Below the pieces are notes generated by a model, which saw only the letters and a list, made by a program, of their open reading frames with translations, ran no database searches and had not been told where the DNA came from. Below are positions 1 to 9,038 of a stretch of 13,902 bases of DNA, piece by piece. Source of the stretch: a virus (Duplodnaviria > Heunggongvirae > Uroviricota > Caudoviricetes); IMG/VR virus record IMGVR_UViG_2541047917_000005; one strand, given 5' to 3'. The position numbers and the translations under genes are program-made. The number at the start of each line of letters is the position of its first letter. Positions within the stretch are counted from its first letter, which is position 1.

Positions 1-1239
1 ATGAGCAGGGCAATTCATAGACTTAGCGACACTCTTTTACGAAAATTAAGCGGATCACCAACCACAAAAAGCACCTTTTTTAATGATGGTGGCAACCTTA
101 GCGTAAGGCATTCAATCAATGGCCTGTTAACCTGGTATTTCACTTACAGGGCCGGAACTGGTAGGCAGATATCACCGGAACGTCTGAGGCTGGGCAATTA
201 TCCCGATCTGAGCCTGAAAGCTGCCAGGGAAAAAGCGGCACAGTGTCGCGCCTGGCTGGCTGAGGGGAAAAATCCGCGCTATGAACTTAATCATGCTGTA
301 CAGGATGCGTTAGCCCCCGTGACGGTTAAGGAAGCGCTCACTTACTGGCTTGAATCGTACGCAAAGGAAAAGCGCACTGACTACGAATCACTGAAAAGCC
401 GGATCAATAAACACATAATCAGCCAAATTGGCGCTTTGCCGTTGGAAAAATGCGAGCTACGGCACTGGTTGGCATGTTTTGACCAGATGGCAAAGCGAAG
501 CCCAGTATCTGCCGGATTTTTGCTACAGGTATGCAAACAGGCGCTTAAGTACTGCCGAAAACGACGATACGCAATCAGCAACGTTCTTGATGATATGGTT
601 GTCGGTGATGTGGGAAAAAAAGCAGAAGTGAGCGAGCGCGTACTAACAAACAAGGAGCTTGGGGAATTACTCCGCGCCCTGGATGACAAAATATTCCCGC
701 CATACTACAGCGCCCTAATTCGCCTCCTGATTGTTTTTGGATGCCGTACCACCGAGCTAAGGCGCTCTGAGGTGCAGGAGTGGGATTTTAAAGAAATGCT
801 CTGGACAGTACCGAAGGAGCACAGCAAAACGAAGGTCGCCATATTCAGGCCAATACCGGAAAACATTTTGCCGTTCGTCACGCAGCTGGTGGAGCAGAAC
901 AGACACACGAGCTTATTGCTTGGTGAACTGAAAGGACAATCTTCGGTAGCAGAGTACGGAAGAACAGCGCACAAACGAATTAATCAAGCCCCCTGGACGT
1001 TACACGATATCCGGCACACATTTACAACCATGCTGAACGATTTAGGCGTGGATCCGCATATTGTCGAGCAGCTTACAGCCCACCAGATGCCAGGGATGCA
1101 ACGAGTCTATAACCACTCCCGCTACCTTGATGCAAAACGTGATGCTCTTAATCTATGGGTAGACCGTCTCGAGCTTCTCCAGAACAATGATGAAAAAATC
1201 GTTGTTATGACCCCGCGAATTTACCCCCAAAATTCTTGA
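1..1239 (+). CDS. int: Tyrosine recombinase / integrase, P4-type
   Basis: 412-aa ORF. N-terminal region resembles the P4-integrase arm-binding domain (LSD..DGGNLSVR..YPDLSLKAAREKA). C-terminal region has the catalytic signature HDIRHTF...VYNHSRY. ATG sits exactly at the window edge, so the true start could lie upstream. Stop TGA 1237-1239. Confidence 0.9.
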   Translation: MSRAIHRLSDTLLRKLSGSPTTKSTFFNDGGNLSVRHSINGLLTWYFTYRAGTGRQISPERLRLGNYPDLSLKAAREKAAQCRAWLAEGKNPRYELNHAVQDALAPVTVKEALTYWLESYAKEKRTDYESLKSRINKHIISQIGALPLEKCELRHWLACFDQMAKRSPVSAGFLLQVCKQALKYCRKRRYAISNVLDDMVVGDVGKKAEVSERVLTNKELGELLRALDDKIFPPYYSALIRLLIVFGCRTTELRRSEVQEWDFKEMLWTVPKEHSKTKVAIFRPIPENILPFVTQLVEQNRHTSLLLGELKGQSSVAEYGRTAHKRINQAPWTLHDIRHTFTTMLNDLGVDPHIVEQLTAHQMPGMQRVYNHSRYLDAKRDALNLWVDRLELLQNNDEKIVVMTPRIYPQNS

Positions 1240-1658: not shown

Positions 1659-1868
1659 ATGCGTGAAATAAATGAAGATCGCGTAATCCGTGAGGATGAA
1701 TGTCGTAAGTTAACTGGAGTGTGCCGCACTACACGTTACGAACTGGAGAAAAAAGGGCGCTTTCCGTCACGTCTTAATCTGGGCGGTCGTTCTGTAGGGT
1801 GGCTGCTGTCCGAGGTTATGGAATGGGTTAAAAGCCGGGATCGCATTAATTCAGGTAAGGCAGTGTAA
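1659..1868 (+). CDS. alpA: AlpA-family helix-turn-helix transcriptional regulator
   Basis: 69-aa product MREINEDRVIREDECRKLTGVCRTTRYELEKKGRFPSRLNLGGRSVGWLLSEVMEWVKSR matches the AlpA/Phage_AlpA pattern (TG.srsTiY.l...G.FP..i.LG.rsVgW...Ev.eW). The ORF-track version starts at GTG 1572, which lies inside its own Shine-Dalgarno (aagaggtg) with no spacer; ATG 1659 gives the expected AlpA length. Confidence 0.8.
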   Translation: MREINEDRVIREDECRKLTGVCRTTRYELEKKGRFPSRLNLGGRSVGWLLSEVMEWVKSRDRINSGKAV

Positions 1869-1895
1869 AGGGGAGCATATGACACATAAAACAAA

Positions 1896-1915
1896 GGCGA
1901 CCGGGGGCGGTCGCC
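1896..1915 (-). terminator. Perfect 8-bp stem hairpin, terminator-like on the minus strand
   Basis: GGCGACCG-GGGG-CGGTCGCC at 1896-1915. On the minus strand it is followed by a T-rich run (TTTGTTTTAT, reverse complement of 1886-1895). On the plus strand it is followed by AATGGGAAAAC, which is not terminator-like. Confidence 0.4.
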
Positions 1916-2237
1916 AATGGGAAAACACTAAACATAAGCCCGAACATCATAGCGATTTGCTGGCTGGTGGGCAAATCCTGAGCGGTCCTGCAATTACAGG
2001 AACTACGGCATTGTCGCGGTTAGGTTGTGCTCAACTTTTTTTCACCTCTATATCGCAAGCGCGCCGTAATAAATCGCCTTTATCGCTTCCGCAAAGATCC
2101 TTTTTCTCGAAGCATGATTTTAAGAGAAAGGCGACGACAATTAATAAAACCGCACAGAGTTTCCAATTTATAAATTTTGACATCTTTTACCCCTATGATT
2201 GTCGCCATCGTTCTTCATGTTATGACGTGATTAATGA

Positions 2238-2417
2238 TTACTCGGATTCACTGGCCTTGCGCCGCTGGCGATATTCAACTTCTCGTTTTAATGCCGCAGT
2301 AACAAATTGCCCCGTACTTTCTCCAGGCATTTTTACCGCCTCAACATTGTTCATAACTTCATGCGGAACCCTTGCCGCAACGGTTTGTGATTTTGCGTTT
2401 ACTGCTTTTGTCGCCAT
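2238..2417 (-). CDS. Putative ribbon-helix-helix (CopG/Arc-like) DNA-binding protein; 59 aa, below the ORF-track length cut-off
   Basis: Hand translation of the minus strand: MATKAVNAKSQTVAARVPHEVMNNVEAVKMPGESTGQFVTAALKREVEYRQRRKASESE. Pattern of beta-strand (QTVAARVP), helix (HEVMNNVEAV), Gly turn, helix (FVTAALKREVEY) fits an RHH fold. GAGGGG Shine-Dalgarno lies about 10 nt upstream of the ATG at 2417. Palindromic operator-like repeats sit 50-100 bp upstream of it. The plus-strand frame over the same bases gives a compositionally implausible peptide. Confidence 0.45.
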   Translation of the reverse strand: MATKAVNAKSQTVAARVPHEVMNNVEAVKMPGESTGQFVTAALKREVEYRQRRKASESE

Positions 2418-2467
2418 GTTGTGTACCCCTCATAAAAAACAAATGCAGTATGCAGGAAAAAAAATAA

Positions 2468-2520
2468 GTGTTCAACACTTGACGTGTTCAACACCTGAGT
2501 TTAAATTGGTGTTCAACACC
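2468..2520. promoter_or_regulatory. Three perfect copies of the 11-bp palindrome GTGTTCAACAC overlapping a sigma70-like promoter (operator array)
   Basis: Exact copies at 2468-2478, 2484-2494 and 2509-2519; each is a dyad (GTGTT-C-AACAC). TTGACG (2479-2484) and TAAATT (2502-2507) are spaced 17 bp, so two copies bracket the -35 and the third lies just downstream of the -10. The region is divergent between the minus-strand RHH ORF and the plus-strand Icd-like start at 2617. Confidence 0.5.
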
Positions 2521-2616
2521 TTGTTGGCGCAAGGTGCAGAAACGACGAAACCCGGCAGTGAGCTAACACTAACCGGGCTTCTAACCACCAACGATAGAAA
2601 GCGTATCGAGGTAGCT

Positions 2617-3231
2617 ATGTTAAATCATACCACACACCCGCAAGGGCGGGATTCGCACAACCTGAATAAATACATCTGGCGTTTTATCGCCCTGAGCACG
2701 GCACAACCGCGCGTGATTACCATCGAGGCCACCAGCGAACAGGAAGCACGCCAGAAAAACCAGTTGATCGCCACTGCCAGCCAGGGCTATGATTTACCCG
2801 CACCAGCAAAATCTGGTGCCGGGATTGGCGTCCTGGAAATGTCAAAGGCGATATATGACGCGCCAGCGTCTTTTTTATCGTCCGCATTCGCTCACATCAA
2901 AGTTATGGTGGGCTGGGCGGGGGCTTCTTCGGAAGCGCCGGTTCCCTTTGACGCCGGTTACGCCAACCCCGTTCAGTCCACCGCCAGCGAAATTGGCGTT
3001 TCCTGCGGTGGAAATTCTTCACTGTCAAAGGAGGCTGCCAACATGGCTACTATCCCTACCCTCGTACATTCTCAAACTGCCTTTATCTGGCGCTTTATCA
3101 TCTTTGGCGCGTCAGAATCTCAAATCGTCCACGTAACCGCCTGGACGGAAGGCGAAGCGCGTAACCGTTGCCCGTCCGGTTGTGTCGCTGTATTCGCCGC
3201 CCGTATTCGTCAGGGGGTGAGTCATGCATAA
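2617..3231 (+). CDS. Icd-like (host cell division inhibitor-like) protein with two tandem Icd-like domains in one frame
   Basis: ATG 2617 preceded by GAGG (2608-2611). Two related segments: NKYIWRFIALSTAQPRVITIEATSEQEARQ and QTAFIWRFIIFGASESQIVHVTAWTEGEARN..AVFAARIRQGV, recognised from memory as the Icd-like family of P4-like islands. No stop codon separates the two copies. The stop-free frame actually extends from 1879, but that upstream part is judged non-coding. Confidence 0.5.
   Translation: MLNHTTHPQGRDSHNLNKYIWRFIALSTAQPRVITIEATSEQEARQKNQLIATASQGYDLPAPAKSGAGIGVLEMSKAIYDAPASFLSSAFAHIKVMVGWAGASSEAPVPFDAGYANPVQSTASEIGVSCGGNSSLSKEAANMATIPTLVHSQTAFIWRFIIFGASESQIVHVTAWTEGEARNRCPSGCVAVFAARIRQGVSHA
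3043..3231 (+). CDS. Second Icd-like copy as a possible independent cistron (alternative to the 2617 start)
   Basis: Near-consensus Shine-Dalgarno AAGGAGG (3028-3034) 8 nt before ATG 3043. 62-aa product MATIPTLVHSQTAFIWRFIIFGASESQIVHVTAWTEGEARNRCPSGCVAVFAARIRQGVSHA has a typical Icd-like size. Confidence 0.45.
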   Translation: MATIPTLVHSQTAFIWRFIIFGASESQIVHVTAWTEGEARNRCPSGCVAVFAARIRQGVSHA

Positions 3232-3451
3232 AATACCCTTTGATGTTCTTGTTCATTCTGAAAACGCATTAATCCGCGCAAAGGAAATGGACGCATTACT
3301 ACTTAAGTTAATTGATGTGCCGGAAAGTGGCGATGAATCTGATTCAATGATGTTTTCTGCCGTGCGTACGCTATTAACGCCTGTTATTAATGAATTAAAT
3401 ACATTGATGGCAATTCACGAGAATAATAAAGCGCAGCACACCGGAGAATAA
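3224..3451 (+). CDS. Hypothetical small protein (75 aa)
   Basis: ATG 3224 overlaps the upstream TAA (ATGCATAA) and is preceded by AGGGGG (3212-3217). Acidic, helical-looking sequence; no family recognised by eye. Confidence 0.55.
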   Translation: MHKIPFDVLVHSENALIRAKEMDALLLKLIDVPESGDESDSMMFSAVRTLLTPVINELNTLMAIHENNKAQHTGE

Positions 3452-3456
3452 AAAAC

Positions 3457-3756
3457 ATGAAAAATAAAAATTCTGGCTTTACCGCCAGCGGCCCTGCTCG
3501 TCCTGAATTTATGAACGGCGATATTTACCGCGATAAATATGGCGGCATGGTAACGATTAAAGGCGTGGCAGAACGGCGCATCACCTACGGTCGTGAAGGC
3601 TACGAATATGATTGCGTGATGCCTGTTTATCAGTTTCGGCGTGATTTTTCTCTGGTACAGGCAGCGCCCCGCAGTAAACCAACCAGCAGGGAGAAAGCAC
3701 GCGCCAATATTCAGGAAATAAAAAAGATGCTTAACGTATTCAGGGGTAAAAAATGA
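3457..3756 (+). CDS. Hypothetical protein (99 aa), translationally coupled to the primase/helicase
   Basis: ATG 3457 with GGAGA upstream. Its stop TGA overlaps the ATG of the next gene (ATGA at 3753-3756). No family recognised by eye. Confidence 0.55.
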   Translation: MKNKNSGFTASGPARPEFMNGDIYRDKYGGMVTIKGVAERRITYGREGYEYDCVMPVYQFRRDFSLVQAAPRSKPTSREKARANIQEIKKMLNVFRGKK

Positions 3757-5501
3757 AACTGGCACCGAACGTAAAAAAACAGCCACGCGGAATAAAACAC
3801 AAAGACACAGAGGTAATTATTTTCGCGGGTAGTGATGCCTGGTCGCACGCGAAACAATGGCAGGAGCAGGATGGCCCCGCATCCGGCGATAATGTGCCGC
3901 CTGTGTGGCTTGGGCCAAATCAGCTTGCCGAACTTGATGCACTGAAAATTGTTCCGGATGGAAAAAAACGCGTAAGGCTGTACCAGGCCGGAGAACTGGA
4001 TTTGGTGGAGACCAAAAAGATTGGTCAGAAGCTGGCGGCGGCAGATATTCAGGACGCAAATTTTTACCCCGAAGGAATGCACGTCCAGAAGTGTGAAAAC
4101 TGGCGGCGCTATCTGAATGCTGAGCGTGAAAATATTGCCGCAGGGCTTACCATGCCGGAGCAGAAAAATACGCAACTGGCACAAATGGCAGACAGTGAGC
4201 GCGCACAGATGCTTGCTGGTCGATTTGATGGCGTTTGTGTGCATCCGGAAAGTGAAATCGTTCACGTATGGCGCGGCGGGGTATGGTGTCCGGTCAGCAC
4301 AATGGAACTTAGCCGCGAAATGGTGGCGATCTATTCAGAGCACAGGGCCACTTTCAGCAAGCGCGTAATCAATAACGCCGTGGAAGCGTTAAAAGTTATT
4401 GCCGAACCAATGGGCGAGCCGTCCGGCGATTTGCTGCCGTTCGCCAATGGTGCGCTTGACCTGAAAACGGGGGAATTTTCCCCGCACACGCCGGAGAACT
4501 GGATCACCACGAACAACGGCATTGAGTACACGCCACCAGCACCAGGGGAGAACATCCGCGATAACGCGCCAAACTTTCATAAATGGCTTGAGCACGCAGC
4601 CGGAAAAGACTCGCGCAAGATGATGCGTATATGTGCCGCGCTGTACATGATTATGGCGAACCGGTACGACTGGCAGATGTTTATTGAGGCCACCGGAGAC
4701 GGCGGGAGCGGTAAAAGTACATTCACACACATCGCCAGCCTTCTGGCAGGGAAACAGAACACGGTGAGCGCGGAGATGACATCGCTTGATGATGCTGGTG
4801 GGCGTGCGCAGGTTGTCGGGAGTCGTCTTATCGTCCTGGCAGACCAGCCGAAATATACAGGCGAAGGCACGGGCATCAAGAAAATCACGGGCGGCGACCC
4901 CGTGGAAATCAACCCGAAATATGAAAAGCGTTTCACTACGGTAATCAGGGCGGTGGTGCTGGCGACCAATAACAACCCGATGATATTCACCGAACGGGCC
5001 GGAGGCGTGTCACGTCGTCGGGTTATTTTCCGCTTCGACAATATCGTAAGCGAGGCAGAAAAAGACAGGGAGCTACCGGAAAAGATTGCGGCTGAAATCC
5101 CTGTCATTATCCGCCGCTTGCTGGCGAACTTTGCCGACCCTGAAAAGGCACGGGCTTTACTCATTGAACAGCGAGACGGTGATGAAGCACTGGCGATAAA
5201 GCAGCAGACGGATCCGGTTATTGAGTTTTGCCAGTTCCTTAACTTTCTGGAAGAAGCACGCGGCCTGATGATGGGCGGCGGCGGTGACTCTTCCAGGTAC
5301 ACGACCAGAAACAGCCTTTACCGCGTCTATCTGGCGTTTATGGCGTATGCAGGCAGGAGCAAACCGCTAAACGTAAATGACTTTGGCAAGGCTATGAAGC
5401 CAGCCGCGAAAGTTTACGGACATGAATATATTACGCGGAAAGTTAAGGGAGTAACGCAGACTAACGCAATAACAACAGACGATTGCGACGCGTTTTTATA
5501 A
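3753..5501 (+). CDS. DNA primase/helicase of the phage/plasmid primase P4 family (D5_N-like region plus SF3 P-loop NTPase)
   Basis: 582 aa. Walker A GDGGSGKST encoded at 4695-4721. Upstream region LLPFANGALDLKTGEFSPHTPENWITTNNGIEYTP is typical of the P4-alpha / D5 N-terminal-like domain. AGGGG Shine-Dalgarno 6 nt upstream of the ATG. The N-terminal ~200 aa (VIIFAGSDAWSH...) could be toprim-like but is not confidently assigned. Confidence 0.9.
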   Translation: MKLAPNVKKQPRGIKHKDTEVIIFAGSDAWSHAKQWQEQDGPASGDNVPPVWLGPNQLAELDALKIVPDGKKRVRLYQAGELDLVETKKIGQKLAAADIQDANFYPEGMHVQKCENWRRYLNAERENIAAGLTMPEQKNTQLAQMADSERAQMLAGRFDGVCVHPESEIVHVWRGGVWCPVSTMELSREMVAIYSEHRATFSKRVINNAVEALKVIAEPMGEPSGDLLPFANGALDLKTGEFSPHTPENWITTNNGIEYTPPAPGENIRDNAPNFHKWLEHAAGKDSRKMMRICAALYMIMANRYDWQMFIEATGDGGSGKSTFTHIASLLAGKQNTVSAEMTSLDDAGGRAQVVGSRLIVLADQPKYTGEGTGIKKITGGDPVEINPKYEKRFTTVIRAVVLATNNNPMIFTERAGGVSRRRVIFRFDNIVSEAEKDRELPEKIAAEIPVIIRRLLANFADPEKARALLIEQRDGDEALAIKQQTDPVIEFCQFLNFLEEARGLMMGGGGDSSRYTTRNSLYRVYLAFMAYAGRSKPLNVNDFGKAMKPAAKVYGHEYITRKVKGVTQTNAITTDDCDAFL

Positions 5502-7257: not shown

Positions 7258-8427
7258 ATGCCGAGAATTATCGAATTGCGCCAGCAGAAAACCGCCATCA
7301 AAAATCAGATGCGCGACATGCTGGAGAACGCGGAAAAAGAAAACCGCAGCCTTAACGACGCCGAGGGCGCAAAATTTGACGAATTACGCGCTAAAGCTGA
7401 ATCCCTCGATAAAGACATTTCCCGCCTTGAAGCCGTTGCCGACGAAGAGCGCAGCAAGCCAGGTAAAGCCAGCCAGACCACTGACCCCGCAGAACTTCGC
7501 AACTACATCGTAACGGGTGACGTTCGCTCATTATCCACCACCACCAACGGCGGCAAGGACGGTGGTTATACCGTTATCCCTGAGCTTGATCGCGAGGTTA
7601 TGCGGTTACTGAGTGATGAAAGCGTCATGCGAATGATTGCGACGGTGAAAACGGCGAAATCAAACGAATACCAGAAACTGGTTTCCACAGGTGGCGCAAC
7701 GGTGGGGCGTGGCACTGAGGGCAACAAGCGAACCGAAACAGAAACCCCGAAAGTTGAGCGCGTAAGCATCAAACTTAACCCGATCTATGCCTACCCGAAA
7801 ACCACGCAGGAAATCCTGGATTTTTCAGAAGTGGATGTGCTGGGCTGGTTATCGTCTGAAATCGCCGACACGTTCGCCACGACCGAAGAAGATGATTTTG
7901 TAAATGGTGACGGTACTGGCAAGCCGAAGGGTTTCCTGAATTACACCCGTGATACCAACAACGACAAAGCCCGCGCCTTTGGCACCATTGAAAAAATGGT
8001 TACAACAACCGACGCCATTACAGCGGACGAACTGATCGACATCCTCTACAAGCTGAAAGCGAAATACCGTAAGAACGCCGTATGGGTGATGAACTCGAGT
8101 ACAGCGGCAGCATTGCAGAAGCTGAAAAACCAGAGCGGTGATTACGTATGGCGTGACAGCCTCAAAGAGGGCGCACCTGACACATTGCTGGGCCGTCCTG
8201 TTTATTACCTGGAAAGTATGCCGGACATCGGCAAAGGCAAAACGCCGCTGGCTGTCGGTGACTTTAAGCGCGGTTATTTCATCGTTGACCATGAAACGGG
8301 GATCCGTACCCGACCGGACAACATTACAGAGCCGGGTTTCTACAAGGTACACACGGACAAATACATCGGCGGCGGGGTTGTTGACTCCCGCGCGATAAAA
8401 GTCCTCGAGATGAAAAACGGCGGTTAA
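7258..8427 (+). CDS. Major capsid protein, HK97 family
   Basis: About 389 aa from ATG 7258. N-terminal coiled-coil delta-domain-like segment (ELRQQKTAIKNQMRDMLENAEKENRSLNDAEGAKFDELRAKAESLDKDISRLE) followed by an HK97-fold-like body (…GDFKRGYFIVDHETGIRTRPDNITEPGFYKVHTDKYIGGGVVDSRAIKVLEMK). The track start at 7213 is a TTG extension; no clear Shine-Dalgarno for either start. Confidence 0.9.
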   Translation: MPRIIELRQQKTAIKNQMRDMLENAEKENRSLNDAEGAKFDELRAKAESLDKDISRLEAVADEERSKPGKASQTTDPAELRNYIVTGDVRSLSTTTNGGKDGGYTVIPELDREVMRLLSDESVMRMIATVKTAKSNEYQKLVSTGGATVGRGTEGNKRTETETPKVERVSIKLNPIYAYPKTTQEILDFSEVDVLGWLSSEIADTFATTEEDDFVNGDGTGKPKGFLNYTRDTNNDKARAFGTIEKMVTTTDAITADELIDILYKLKAKYRKNAVWVMNSSTAAALQKLKNQSGDYVWRDSLKEGAPDTLLGRPVYYLESMPDIGKGKTPLAVGDFKRGYFIVDHETGIRTRPDNITEPGFYKVHTDKYIGGGVVDSRAIKVLEMKNGG

Positions 8428-8435
8428 CAGAAAAA

Positions 8436-8462
8436 GGGGCTAAAAAGCCCCTTTGGTGTTTT
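8436..8462 (+). terminator. Hairpin plus T-rich tract just after the capsid gene (possible partial terminator)
   Basis: GGGGCT-AAAA-AGCCCC (8436-8451) followed by TTTGGTGTTTT (8452-8462), 8 nt after the capsid stop codon. Confidence 0.45.
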
Positions 8463-8477
8463 ATGGGTGAAAAAAAT

Positions 8478-9038
8478 ATGAAAAAGAGCATGGAAATCCG
8501 GTCATCAGAAATCACCACCAGCGGAGCCAGTACGCTGACGGGTTACGTTGTTCGCTGGAATAACCTTTCTGATCTGCTATGGGGTGAGTTTTACGAAAAA
8601 TTCCAGCGGGGGGCGTTCAGTGAGTGGCTGGCGGCGGGTAATGACGTTCGCGGCCTGTATGAGCATGACCACAGCATGTTACTGGGGCGCACCCGTTCCG
8701 GCACGCTGAAACTGGAAGAGGACGACACAGGGTTACGCTTTGAACTGACCCCACCGGATACCAGCACAGGGCGGGACGTTATCGAACTGGTTAAACGTGG
8801 TGATATATCCGGCATGAGCTTTGGCTTTCGTTCCCGTAAGGATGTATGGGATACCACAACAGATCCATGCGTGCGCACCGTGCTGGTGGCGGAACTGTAC
8901 GAAATTACCGTTACATCCGTACCGGCTTACCCTGATTCCGGCGTGGATCTGGCCCGCCGTTCCCTGTATGAGCAGCACCCCGAAAAAATGCCACGCGCGG
9001 ATAATCGCCGCTGGTGGGCGGATTTAGCGGGGGTGTGA
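8478..9038 (+). CDS. Prohead maturation protease, HK97 family (S78/U35-like)
   Basis: Motifs GYVVRWNNLSD, YEHDHSMLLGRT, GLRFELTPPDT, ISGMSFGF are consistent with HK97 gp4-type proteases. Start uncertain between ATG 8463, 8478 and 8490; 8478 has GGTGA 7 nt upstream. Stop TGA 9036-9038. Confidence 0.85.
   Translation: MKKSMEIRSSEITTSGASTLTGYVVRWNNLSDLLWGEFYEKFQRGAFSEWLAAGNDVRGLYEHDHSMLLGRTRSGTLKLEEDDTGLRFELTPPDTSTGRDVIELVKRGDISGMSFGFRSRKDVWDTTTDPCVRTVLVAELYEITVTSVPAYPDSGVDLARRSLYEQHPEKMPRADNRRWWADLAGV

What the first reader, a model, noticed from the sequence alone, without database searches (positions are those of the whole stretch)
1879..3231. A 1353-nt stop-free plus-strand frame that is probably only partly coding, ending in tandem Icd-like domains
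The frame is open from 1879 to 3231, which is very unlikely by chance. Its first ~246 codons give a Ser/Thr/Cys/Phe-rich peptide and run across a perfect hairpin, the RHH-like minus-strand ORF and the operator array, so they are probably not a real protein. The last ~205 codons contain two related Icd-like segments (…YIWRFIALSTA…TSEQEAR… and …FIWRFIIFGAS…TEGEAR…), each with its own Shine-Dalgarno and ATG (2617, 3043), with no stop between them. This could be a fused tandem Icd-like protein, an internal-initiation isoform pair, or a first copy that lost its stop.
Basis: seen in the sequence. Interest (0 to 1): 0.5.

Follow-up and report, generated by a model that had tools for sequence, protein, structure and literature searches.

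The report
P4-style RNA immunity leader in PICI
The long stop-free frame is real, but it is not a tandem-domain protein: it is a read-through reading frame in an E. coli phage satellite that runs over two small regulatory RNA genes and ends in one small Icd/Kil-like gene, the layout known from satellite phage P4, and its openness is conserved in over a hundred related islands.

Summary
Frame 1879..3231 is open (450 codons; the stop-free stretch starts at 1798), and no shuffle of the window gives one as long.

The stretch between the two Icd-like segments is not a protein linker. It holds a promoter-like site (2764-2793), an isrK/seqA-type RNA with its terminator (2800-2876) and a C4/CI-type antisense RNA (2901-2988). 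The C4 loops are complementary to sites in isrK and to sites at 2994-3000 and 3023-3031; the last abuts the Shine-Dalgarno of the 3043 gene.

Only copy 2 (3043..3231, 62 aa) is a full Icd-like gene. Copy 1 is a C-terminally truncated remnant, left when a 432-bp RNA cassette landed in frame inside an icd gene.

This layout is collinear with phage P4 vis-eta/kil with seqA and CI. The window is a capsid-forming PICI.

Unexpectedly, the first 246 codons are open by more than chance. In about 126 related islands (56 upstream sequence clusters) the same frame usually stays open from the end of alpA to icd. It crosses real minus-strand genes in a wobble-matched phase, with spacer lengths differing in threes, but shows no amino-acid-level constraint.

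Best reading: an eta-like frame kept open for translation, not for its product. That last step is inferred, not shown.

The parts
1659..1868 (+). alpA (island activator/excisionase family). Its TAA stop lies 10 nt before the ATG of the long frame.
   Evidence: Pfam Phage_AlpA 60.3 bits; sequence context of the junction
1879..3231 (+). The 450-codon stop-free frame (eta-like read-through frame). In-frame ATGs at 1879, 2416, 2443, 2617, 2839, 2905 and 3043.
   Evidence: conservation of openness
1896..1915 (-). Intrinsic terminator (8-bp GC-rich stem followed by a T run) ending the leftward ylcI transcription unit.
2031..2183 (-). 50-aa small lipoprotein-like ORF (signal peptide plus an LKSC box). 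It is wobble-matched to the plus-strand frame.
2238..2417 (-). YlcI/YnfO-family gene, the likely repressor of the divergent promoter. It is wobble-matched to the plus-strand frame.
   Evidence: NCBIfam 59.6 bits; exact protein named YlcI/YnfO in NCBI; phase
2468..2519 (.). Three GTGTTCAACAC operators (2468, 2484, 2509) bracketing a rightward promoter-like site, TTGACG-17-TAAATT at 2479-2507.
2617..2799 (+). Conserved leader SD+ATG (2617) and truncated Icd-like copy 1 (core 2671-2754), then the linker that carries the cassette's promoter. The junction with the cassette lies at about 2757/2758.
2764..2793 (+). Internal sigma-70-like promoter TTGATC-18-TATGAT. It ends 7 nt before the isrK 5' end and corresponds in position to P4 PLE.
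   Evidence: position relative to the Rfam hit
2800..2876 (+). isrK/seqA-type RNA, carrying target sites a1 (2826-2832) and b1 (2840-2848) and an intrinsic terminator (2857-2870 plus T6).
   Evidence: Rfam RF01394 75.1 bits; RF03163 c4-a1b1 45.5 bits, just under its gathering score of 46.7
2901..2988 (+). C4/CI-type antisense (immunity) RNA, with loop b' at 2945-2953 and single-stranded a' at 2960-2966. The ATG at 2905 corresponds to the first AUG of Gifsy-1 orf45.
   Evidence: Rfam RF01695 82 bits; 13 of 27 pairs with compensatory changes; PMC4825925
2991..3034 (+). Downstream targets a2 (2994-3000) and b2 (3023-3031). b2 abuts and overlaps the AGGAGG Shine-Dalgarno of the 3043 gene (P4 seqC / P1 a2-b2 equivalent).
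3043..3231 (+). Full-length Icd-like (P4 Kil-like) gene of 62 aa, nested in frame at the 3' end of the long frame. Its stop overlaps the next ATG (ATGCATAA, 3224).
   Evidence: NCBIfam phage_ICD_like 55.8 bits, 1-48/48; exact protein WP_248836202.1; third-position excess 14/12/22

Best explanation
The window is a capsid-forming PICI of E. coli. The 1353-nt frame is a composite of four parts.

(1) 3043..3231 is the one conserved protein gene, a 62-aa Icd/Kil-like peptide.

(2) 2764..3034 is a self-contained RNA immunity cassette of the P4/P1 type. It comprises an internal promoter, an isrK/seqA RNA with a leaky terminator, a C4/CI antisense RNA, and downstream target sites, one of which (b2) overlaps the ribosome-binding site of the icd gene. 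In the resting island, C4 would pair with these sites, block icd translation and so cause premature termination before the replication genes. This step is inferred from P4 and P1.

(3) 2617..2757 is the 5' two-thirds of an older icd gene, into which the cassette was inserted in frame.

(4) 1879..2616 is a sequence-unconstrained but open frame. It starts 10 nt after the alpA stop and runs antisense through a small lipoprotein-like gene, the ylcI-type gene and the operator/promoter region.

The whole frame behaves like P4 eta. When the helper phage switches on alpA, ribosomes coupled from alpA would translate continuously through to icd and on into the coupled downstream genes. That would keep the long transcript safe from Rho-dependent termination, from the isrK terminator and from C4 pairing. 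On this reading the frame is kept open for the act of translation, not for its product.

Shown here: the parts, the homology to P4, the covariation of the RNA and its targets, and the conservation of the open frame. Inferred: which starts are used, and the anti-termination role.
For: RNA genes and signals:
- Rfam C4 at 82 bits and isrK at 75 bits, both at full model length.
- The C4 fold has 13 of 27 pairs with compensatory changes across 10 sequences, including P4.
- Loops a' and b' are complementary to a1/b1 in isrK and to a2/b2 downstream. All three sets co-vary in at least 5 specificity types.
- A promoter-like site ends 7 nt before isrK, and isrK carries a terminator.

Homology to P4:
- P4 has vis 9030..8764, eta 8761..8168, isrK 8692..8615 and C4 8507..8420.
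- P4 Eta is Pfam Phage_ASH, as is the window frame.
- The window frame from 2617 aligns collinearly with P4 Eta.

Icd copies and cassette:
- Copy 1 is truncated and copy 2 is complete.
- The cassette is 432 bp in place of 21 bp.
- Cassette junctions lie 108, 123 or 183 nt after the leader ATG in different islands, all in frame.

Open frame conserved:
- Among 101 unique 600-nt upstream sequences, the ORF frame has a mean of 1.73 stops (69 have none). The other two plus-strand frames have 11.95 and 12.82 (none has zero).
- There are 56 upstream sequence clusters, and most are open for 125-641 codons.
- L130, which lacks the anchor leader, is open for 617 codons.
- The spacer from the ylcI start to the leader ATG is 190, 193, 196, 199, 205, 208 or 217 nt in 90 open loci. 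It is 182, 194, 197 or 198 nt in the 5 loci whose frame is broken.
- Every annotated minus-strand gene shares its wobble position with the plus-strand frame.
- In about 50 of about 70 junction types, the first in-frame ATG lies within -11 to +19 nt of the stop of the upstream plus-strand gene, often behind a G-rich SD.

No constraint on the amino-acid sequence:
- Polymorphic sites by codon position are 17/15/15 in the spacer, 13/14/13 in isrK and 16/14/15 in C4. In icd copy 2 they are 14/12/22.

Literature:
- PMC10111431 summarises Forti 1999: eta is coupled to the alpA homologue and its translation prevents immunity termination. It also reports that Rfam C4 and isrK hit several Gram-negative PICIs.
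- PMC6092414: AlpA activates its own promoter, and a reporter fused to the ORF after alpA depends on alpA.
- PMC4825925: the frame over the C4-like RNA (orf45) is translated in Gifsy-1 and couples to the next gene.
Against: - There is no direct evidence of translation or of transcripts for this island.
- 107 of 126 related islands lack C4 and isrK yet keep the frame open. Overriding RNA immunity therefore cannot be the only reason; avoidance of Rho polarity is a guess.
- The SD-to-ATG spacing at 1879 is short, at 3 nt.
- Plus-strand transcription would have to run against the convergent ylcI unit.
- The loci are related islands, not independent samples, and about 15% of them have a short or broken upstream frame.
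- No Rho-dependent terminator can be located by sequence.
- P4's own experimental paper could not be read here.
Confidence: 0.6

Rival explanations
1. The frame encodes a genuine multi-domain protein, either the 204-aa 'Ash family' protein from 2617 or the full 450 aa. Its product would function as a Bro-network regulator carrying two Icd-like modules.
For: Pfam Phage_ASH scores 64-67 bits. NCBI names the exact 204-aa sequence 'ash family protein' on 27 contigs. The frame is conserved. PMC10111431 treats such genes as Bro-network genes.
Against: The Ash match is exactly the isrK+C4 interval. Polymorphism there shows no third-position excess, while the stems and target sites co-vary at the RNA level. 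Copy 1 lacks profile positions 33-48. No family hits 1879-2616, and that part is replaced by unrelated sequence in other islands. A promoter-like site and a terminator lie inside the frame.
Confidence: 0.15
2. Only the 62-aa Icd-like gene (3043) is translated, perhaps with a separate short product from 2617. On this reading the rest of the open frame is an untranslated by-product: an antisense shadow of the minus-strand genes plus RNA-constrained sequence that happens to lack stops.
For: PGAP annotates relatives this way, with pseudogene fragments plus a 189-nt icd. Over ylcI alone, an open antisense frame is not unlikely; my by-hand estimate is about 0.3. The amino-acid sequence is unconstrained.
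Against: There are zero stops in 69 of 101 unique upstream sequences, against about 12 in each other frame. Openness extends through intergenic spacers and through non-homologous replacement segments. Spacer length classes differ in threes. Cassette junctions are in frame at three different sites. Starts are placed at the stop of the upstream gene. Composition alone gives P = 1.6e-6 for this window's first 246 codons.
Confidence: 0.15
3. The arrangement is a recent recombination scar with no function of its own. An unequal exchange between an island with 'leader-icd' and one with 'leader-isrK-C4-icd' left a dead icd fragment, and the in-frame junction is an accident.
For: Relative to the common island type, the window differs by one 432-bp segment. 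Only 3 of 19 C4-bearing loci in my set have the copy-1 core. 74 of 5426 complete E. coli genomes hold at least 80% of the 2560-3260 query.
Against: The same junction occurs in L003 and in the diverged L005 (85.7% identity) with the frame intact. Other junction variants are also in frame. This rival explains the origin of copy 1, which I accept, but not the conserved openness elsewhere.
Confidence: 0.1

Closest known systems
Satellite phage P4 left-operon leader: vis (alpA homologue) - eta/kil nested genes with PLE, seqA, CI RNA and seqC (Forti et al. 1999 J Bacteriol 181:5225, as summarised in PMC10111431; Sabbattini 1995)
   Same: The order of parts is the same: alpA-type gene, then a long frame starting at its stop, an internal promoter, an isrK/seqA-type RNA, a C4/CI-type RNA, downstream targets, and a short Icd/Kil-like gene nested in frame at the 3' end, followed by replication genes including the primase. 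The frame from 2617 is 204 codons against eta's 197. Both hit Pfam Phage_ASH.
   Different: Here the frame is 450 codons. Between alpA and the cassette lie about 740 nt holding a divergent minus-strand unit (lipoprotein-like ORF and ylcI-type gene), three operators, a second promoter and a truncated icd, all crossed in frame. In P4, eta overlaps the vis stop (ATGA); here there is a 10-nt gap with an SD. The isrK-to-C4 spacing is 24 nt here and 107 nt in P4. The host element is a capsid-forming PICI, not a P4-like satellite. Function is untested here.
Phage P1/P7 immI operon: c4 antisense RNA - icd - ant (Citron & Schuster 1990; Riedel et al. 1993; from my own knowledge)
   Same: A C4 RNA flanked by a1/b1 and a2/b2 sites, with b2 at the ribosome-binding site of an Icd-family gene. 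Loops and targets co-vary to give immunity specificities. P1-like phages match the Ash+Icd part as one in-frame tblastn piece (H61-H63).
   Different: No antirepressor follows icd. The downstream genes are a 75-aa ORF, DUF4222 and a D5-type primase. The upstream long frame and the alpA coupling are not P1 features, as far as I know.
Salmonella Gifsy-1 isrK-orf45-anrP locus (PMC4825925)
   Same: An isrK RNA with a leaky terminator. A frame over the C4-like RNA (STnc1160) starts at +107 there and at +106 here (ATG 2905). Its nucleotide sequence is conserved but its amino-acid sequence is not, and it is translated and coupled to the next gene.
   Different: In Gifsy-1, orf45 ends with a stop that overlaps the anrP start. 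Here the same frame runs on without a stop into icd and extends far upstream. The downstream gene is Icd-like, not an antirepressor.
Gram-negative PICIs with C4/isrK hits in their 'Bro zone' (PMC10111431)
   Same: That paper already reports that Rfam C4 and isrK hit several Gram-negative and helper-embedded PICIs, inside genes with Phage_ASH, and proposes an immunity function.
   Different: As far as I read it, it does not describe the frame continuing from alpA across antisense genes, its conservation in islands without C4, the wobble-matched overlap, or the truncated icd copy.

Membership tests
P4-type eta/kil + CI RNA immunity leader | CI/C4-type structured antisense RNA | tested here: met
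   Rfam RF01695 82 bits against a gathering score of 45; 13 of 27 pairs compensatory; P4 CI hits the same model
P4-type eta/kil + CI RNA immunity leader | Upstream (seqA/a1b1) and downstream (seqC/a2b2) sites complementary to the RNA | tested here: met
   a' ACGCCAA pairs with TTGGCGT at 2826 and 2994; b' CCTTTGACG pairs with TGTCAAAGG at 2840 and 3023; co-variation in at least 5 types; Rfam isrK 75 bits
P4-type eta/kil + CI RNA immunity leader | Constitutive promoter inside the long frame, just upstream of seqA | tested here: inconclusive
   TTGATC-18-TATGAT at 2764-2793, 7 nt before the isrK 5' end. This is a consensus match only; activity was not measured.
P4-type eta/kil + CI RNA immunity leader | Short Kil/Icd-like gene nested in frame at the 3' end of a long frame that starts at the stop of the alpA/vis homologue | tested here: met
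   3043..3231 lies inside 1879..3231; the alpA stop is at 1866-1868; P4 comparison
P4-type eta/kil + CI RNA immunity leader | Translation of the long frame makes upstream-promoter transcripts insensitive to immunity termination; Rho-dependent terminator downstream | not testable with these tools
   Only indirect support: conserved openness and start-at-stop placement
P1/P7 immI (c4-icd-ant) | icd followed by a translationally coupled antirepressor gene | tested here: not met
   The downstream genes are a 75-aa ORF with no family hit, DUF4222 and a D5-type primase
Icd-like protein (NCBIfam NF033153) | Full-length match to the 48-position profile above the cut-off | tested here: met
   Copy 2 (3043..3231): 55.8 bits, positions 1-48 of 48
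Icd-like protein (NCBIfam NF033153) | Copy 1 as a complete second domain | tested here: not met
   Copy 1 matches only profile positions 1-32 of 48 (39.9 bits). The sequence after EARQ is cassette linker.
Pfam Phage_ASH (PF10554) as a protein domain | Score above the gathering threshold | tested here: met
   63.8-67.1 bits against 26
Pfam Phage_ASH (PF10554) as a protein domain | Evidence of selection on the amino-acid sequence | tested here: not met
   The match spans nt ~2797-3072, i.e. isrK+C4. Polymorphism by codon position is 13/14/13 and 16/14/15.
Gifsy-1 isrK-orf45-anrP | orf45 stop overlapping the start of an antirepressor gene | tested here: not met
   The frame from ATG 2905 has no stop before 3231, and the downstream gene is Icd-like
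Capsid-forming Gram-negative PICI | int, alpA, primase, and its own capsid, protease, portal and terminase genes in one direction | tested here: met
   Pfam hits; relatives lie next to cspD

The most novel reading that the evidence does not exclude
In a large group of enterobacterial PICIs, a frame of 200-600 codons is kept open from the stop of alpA to the icd/replication operon purely so that ribosomes can follow RNA polymerase across it. It would act as a 'translated bridge' that crosses a divergent repressor module on the opposite strand (real genes, overlapped with shared wobble positions), a promoter/operator region and, where present, an RNA immunity cassette. What would be selected is openness and phase, not the peptide.
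Probability: 0.45. Interest if true: 0.7.

Novelty: new variant of a known kind. Interest (0 to 1): 0.5.

Why it matters
It corrects annotation. Gene callers give this one frame as proteins of 62, 155, 204, 313 or 450 aa, named 'Icd-like' or 'Ash family'. The Pfam Ash match here and in P4 Eta is the translation of two RNA genes.

It places a P4/P1-type RNA immunity switch, with several co-varying specificities, in capsid-forming PICIs. How the resting state of these elements is held is still unclear (PMC6092414).

If the conserved open frame is a translated bridge, it gives a directly testable case of an ORF selected for being translated rather than for its product. It would also be a case of long antisense gene overlap, in an easily manipulated E. 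coli element.

Tried and rejected
- My first viral contigs pattern had a wrong spacer length and found nothing. The 17-mer anchor then gave 120 loci.
- The codon-position test on all loci with the 199-nt spacer was saturated, with almost every site polymorphic. I repeated it on sequences within 12% of the window.
- The anchor and a looser pattern failed on L129 and L130, so I used a frame scan instead.
- Forti 1999 (PMC94026) is not held. The EcCIMP1 paper has nothing on this region.
- A weak Rfam symR match on the minus strand at 2544-2616 (28.6 bits against a gathering score of 61) was judged to be chance.
- The conserved leader folds only modestly better than shuffles (z = -2.07), so no RNA element is claimed there.
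- 'Chance or compositional open frame' was rejected.
- 'Functional tandem Icd protein' was rejected.
- I did not run structure prediction or the large protein searches, because no outcome would separate the explanations.
Full report
**1. The observation.** The frame 1879..3231 on the plus strand is open (450 aa, ATG start). The stop-free stretch starts at 1798, inside alpA, and is 477 codons long. From base composition, the chance of no stop is 7e-10 for the whole ORF and 1.6e-6 for the first 246 codons. The longest open stretch in 300 shuffles of the whole window was 314 codons.

- An 8-bp GC hairpin at 1896-1915. It scores as an intrinsic terminator only on the minus strand.
- A minus-strand ORF at 2238..2417, which is a YlcI/YnfO-family protein.
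- Three exact GTGTTCAACAC sites at 2468, 2484 and 2509.
- SD+ATG at 2617 and at 3043.
- Two Icd-like segments.

**2. Context.** The window is an E. coli capsid-forming PICI. Its plus-strand genes are int (1..1239), alpA (1659..1868), a D5-type primase (3753..5501), SSB, major capsid, prohead protease, portal, HNH, TerS and TerL. Close relatives sit next to cspD in E. coli chromosomes.

**3. What lies between the two Icd-like segments.** Rfam finds two full-length RNA families on the plus strand: isrK at 2800-2876 (75.1 bits, gathering score 50) and C4 antisense RNA at 2901-2988 (82 bits, gathering score 45). A permissive scan adds the 'a1,b1 targets of C4' family at 2787-2839, just under its threshold.

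A sigma-70-like site, TTGATC-18-TATGAT, ends 7 nt before the isrK 5' end. isrK ends in a GC hairpin followed by T6.

The C4 fold is supported by compensatory changes in 13 of 27 pairs across ten copies, including P4's CI RNA.

The C4 hairpin loop (CCTTTGACG, 2945-2953) is complementary to TGTCAAAGG at two places: 2840 inside isrK, and 3023 directly abutting the AGGAGG Shine-Dalgarno of the 3043 gene. The single-stranded ACGCCAA (2960-2966) is complementary to TTGGCGT at 2826 and 2994. In other islands the loops and both sets of targets change together, giving at least five specificity types.

This is the a1-b1 / c4 / a2-b2 layout of P1 immI and the seqA / CI / seqC layout of P4. The P1 details come from my own knowledge; P4 was checked below.

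The Pfam 'Ash' match of the frame (aa 307-398, nt ~2797-3072) is therefore the translation of these two RNA genes. Polymorphic sites there show no codon-position bias: 13/14/13 in isrK and 16/14/15 in C4. Icd copy 2 shows the expected third-position excess, 14/12/22.

**4. The two Icd-like segments.** Copy 2 (3043..3231, 62 aa) matches the NCBIfam Icd-like profile end to end. Copy 1 matches only positions 1-32 of 48.

Alignment with five E. coli islands shows three architectures:
- (a) leader-icd with no RNAs (L002).
- (b) leader-linker-isrK-C4-icd (L001, L004).
- (c) leader-truncated icd-linker-isrK-C4-icd (window, L003, L005).

Against type (a), the window has 432 bp (2758-3189) in place of 21 bp, a difference of 411 nt or 137 codons. 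The left edge of the inserted segment is the -35 region of the internal promoter.

So copy 1 is the 5' remnant of an icd gene into which a promoter-isrK-C4-icd cassette was recombined. It did not simply lose a stop codon. In my set the cassette starts 108, 123 or 183 nt after the leader ATG, always in frame, and 18 of 19 cassette-bearing loci keep the frame open through both RNAs into icd.

**5. Comparison with P4.** In P4 (NC_001609) the alpA homologue ORF88/vis (9030..8764) is followed at once by a 197-codon frame, eta (8761..8168). That frame contains Rfam isrK (8692..8615) and C4 (8507..8420). It is Pfam Phage_ASH and ends in a 65-aa MATT... peptide, kil. The window's frame from 2617 aligns collinearly with it.

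PMC10111431 summarises Forti et al. 1999 as follows:
- A constitutive promoter inside eta makes a transcript that is terminated through CI-seqA interactions.
- Kil is translated on read-through.
- Full-length eta is translated only from the upstream late promoter and is coupled to the alpA homologue.
- Translation of eta prevents termination.

The same paper already notes that Rfam C4 and isrK hit several Gram-negative PICIs.

In Gifsy-1 the frame over the C4-like RNA (orf45, first AUG at +107; here ATG 2905 is at +106) is translated and couples to the next gene. Its nucleotide sequence is conserved but its amino-acid sequence is not (PMC4825925).

**6. The first 246 codons.** I expected this part to be chance. 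It is not.

Using the invariant leader SD+ATG (GTATCGAGGTAGCTATG, ATG = window 2617) as a frame-neutral anchor, I collected 120 IMG/VR loci plus the E. coli loci.
- In 101 unique 600-nt upstream sequences, the leader's frame has a mean of 1.73 stops, and 69 sequences have none. The other two plus-strand frames have 11.95 and 12.82, and none is stop-free.
- The upstream regions fall into 56 clusters by 12-mer sharing. Most are open for 125-641 codons. These include segments unrelated to the window's.
- L130 lacks the anchor leader altogether and is open for 617 codons.
- The non-coding spacer between the ylcI start and the leader ATG is 190, 193, 196, 199, 205, 208 or 217 nt in the 90 loci with an open frame. 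It is 182, 194, 197 or 198 nt in the five loci where the frame is broken.
- Every annotated minus-strand gene under the frame places its third codon positions on the third positions of the plus-strand frame. These are ylcI in five loci, three other genes in L005, one in L003, and the window's 50-aa ORF.
- In about 50 of about 70 distinct junction types, the first in-frame ATG lies between -11 and +19 nt of the stop of the preceding plus-strand gene (alpA, or a Bro/AntA gene), often behind a G-rich SD. In the window it is TAAaggggagcatATG.

At the same time there is no sign of selection on the peptide. No family hits it. The sequence is replaced wholesale between islands. In the spacer, polymorphism is flat across codon positions, 17/15/15. 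Over the ylcI overlap the count is 6/2/22, but with shared wobble positions that cannot be assigned to either strand.

The minus-strand genes look real. YlcI/YnfO is a curated family. The 50-aa ORF keeps a signal peptide and lipobox-like motif in diverged relatives.

**7. How it most likely works.**

Shown:
- The parts and their order.
- The RNA-target complementarity and its covariation.
- The homology to P4.
- The conservation of openness, phase and start placement.

Inferred, resting island: the internal promoter makes isrK, and read-through transcripts yield C4. C4 pairs at a2/b2, blocks the icd ribosome-binding site, and the untranslated transcript terminates before the replication genes. 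The rightward operator-covered promoter (2479-2507) is held by the YlcI-type protein.

Inferred, induced island: AlpA activates its own promoter (PMC6092414). Ribosomes pass from alpA into the long frame and translate without a gap through to icd. From there they continue into the coupled downstream genes: ATGCATAA at 3224-3231, a 5-nt gap before 3457, and ATGA at 3753. This would shield the transcript from Rho, from the isrK terminator and from C4.

One weakness of this model is that 107 of 126 islands have no C4 cassette yet keep the frame open. General avoidance of polarity over about 750 nt that would otherwise be untranslated is my best guess for those islands.

**8. Verdict.** Most of the finding is explained by a known kind of system, P4/P1-type RNA immunity with nested eta/kil-like genes, whose presence in PICIs has already been noted in print.

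What may be new is the extension of the eta-like frame across a divergent antisense module and its conservation in over a hundred islands. I rate this a new variant of a known kind, of moderate interest.

My confidence differs by claim:
- About 0.95 for the anatomy.
- About 0.85 that openness is under selection.
- About 0.5 for the anti-termination role.

Noticed in passing
window 2031-2183 (minus strand): A 50-aa ORF (MSKFINWKLCAVLLIVVAFLLKSC...) that looks like a small lipoprotein, with a signal peptide and a lipobox-like L-K/I-S-C. It is conserved at the amino-acid level in two diverged relatives (L129, annotated as 87 aa; L130). The segment 1975-2234 that carries it occurs in only 10 of 5426 complete E. 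coli genomes. It could be a superinfection-exclusion type accessory gene.
   Followed up: partly
window 2797-3072; L128 (P4) 8171-8761: The Pfam Phage_ASH family matches exactly the isrK+C4 interval, both here and in P4 Eta. Polymorphism there shows no codon-position bias. The family seems to model an RNA-constrained translated frame rather than a folded domain.
   Followed up: partly
window 2540-2670: The leader around the 2617 ATG is almost invariant at the nucleotide level, even in islands whose flanks are diverged or unrelated (alignment A1). It contains hairpins (CCCGG..CCGGG, CGATA..TATCG, CCCGC..GCGGG). Its fold is only modestly better than shuffles (z = -2.07). The reason for the conservation is unknown.
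   Followed up: partly
L001 4274-4362; L003 3815-3902; also L039, L070, L108, L125: Some islands carry a second C4 copy, without isrK, about 480 nt downstream of the first, followed by another Icd-like ORF. These look like tandem immunity cassettes. The window has none.
   Followed up: no
window 2468-2519 and the same position in other loci: The three operator palindromes over the rightward promoter differ between islands (GTGTTCAACAC here, GTGTAAGACAC in another group), while their spacing is kept. This suggests repressor/operator specificity variants paired with ylcI alleles.
   Followed up: no
L033, L039, L091, L099, L101: Five islands have a spacer length that is not 1 mod 3 between ylcI and the leader ATG, and a broken upstream frame. 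They may be decaying islands, or natural tests of whether the frame matters.
   Followed up: no
window 3224-3756: The genes after icd are tightly coupled: ATGCATAA at 3224-3231, a 5-nt gap before 3457, and ATGA at 3753. From alpA to the primase there is therefore no untranslated gap longer than about 10 nt on the plus strand.
   Followed up: partly
public protein records: The same frame is deposited as proteins of 62, 155, 200, 204, 313, 314 and 450 aa, named 'Icd-like' or 'ash family'. Start-site annotation for this locus is inconsistent across genomes.
   Followed up: partly
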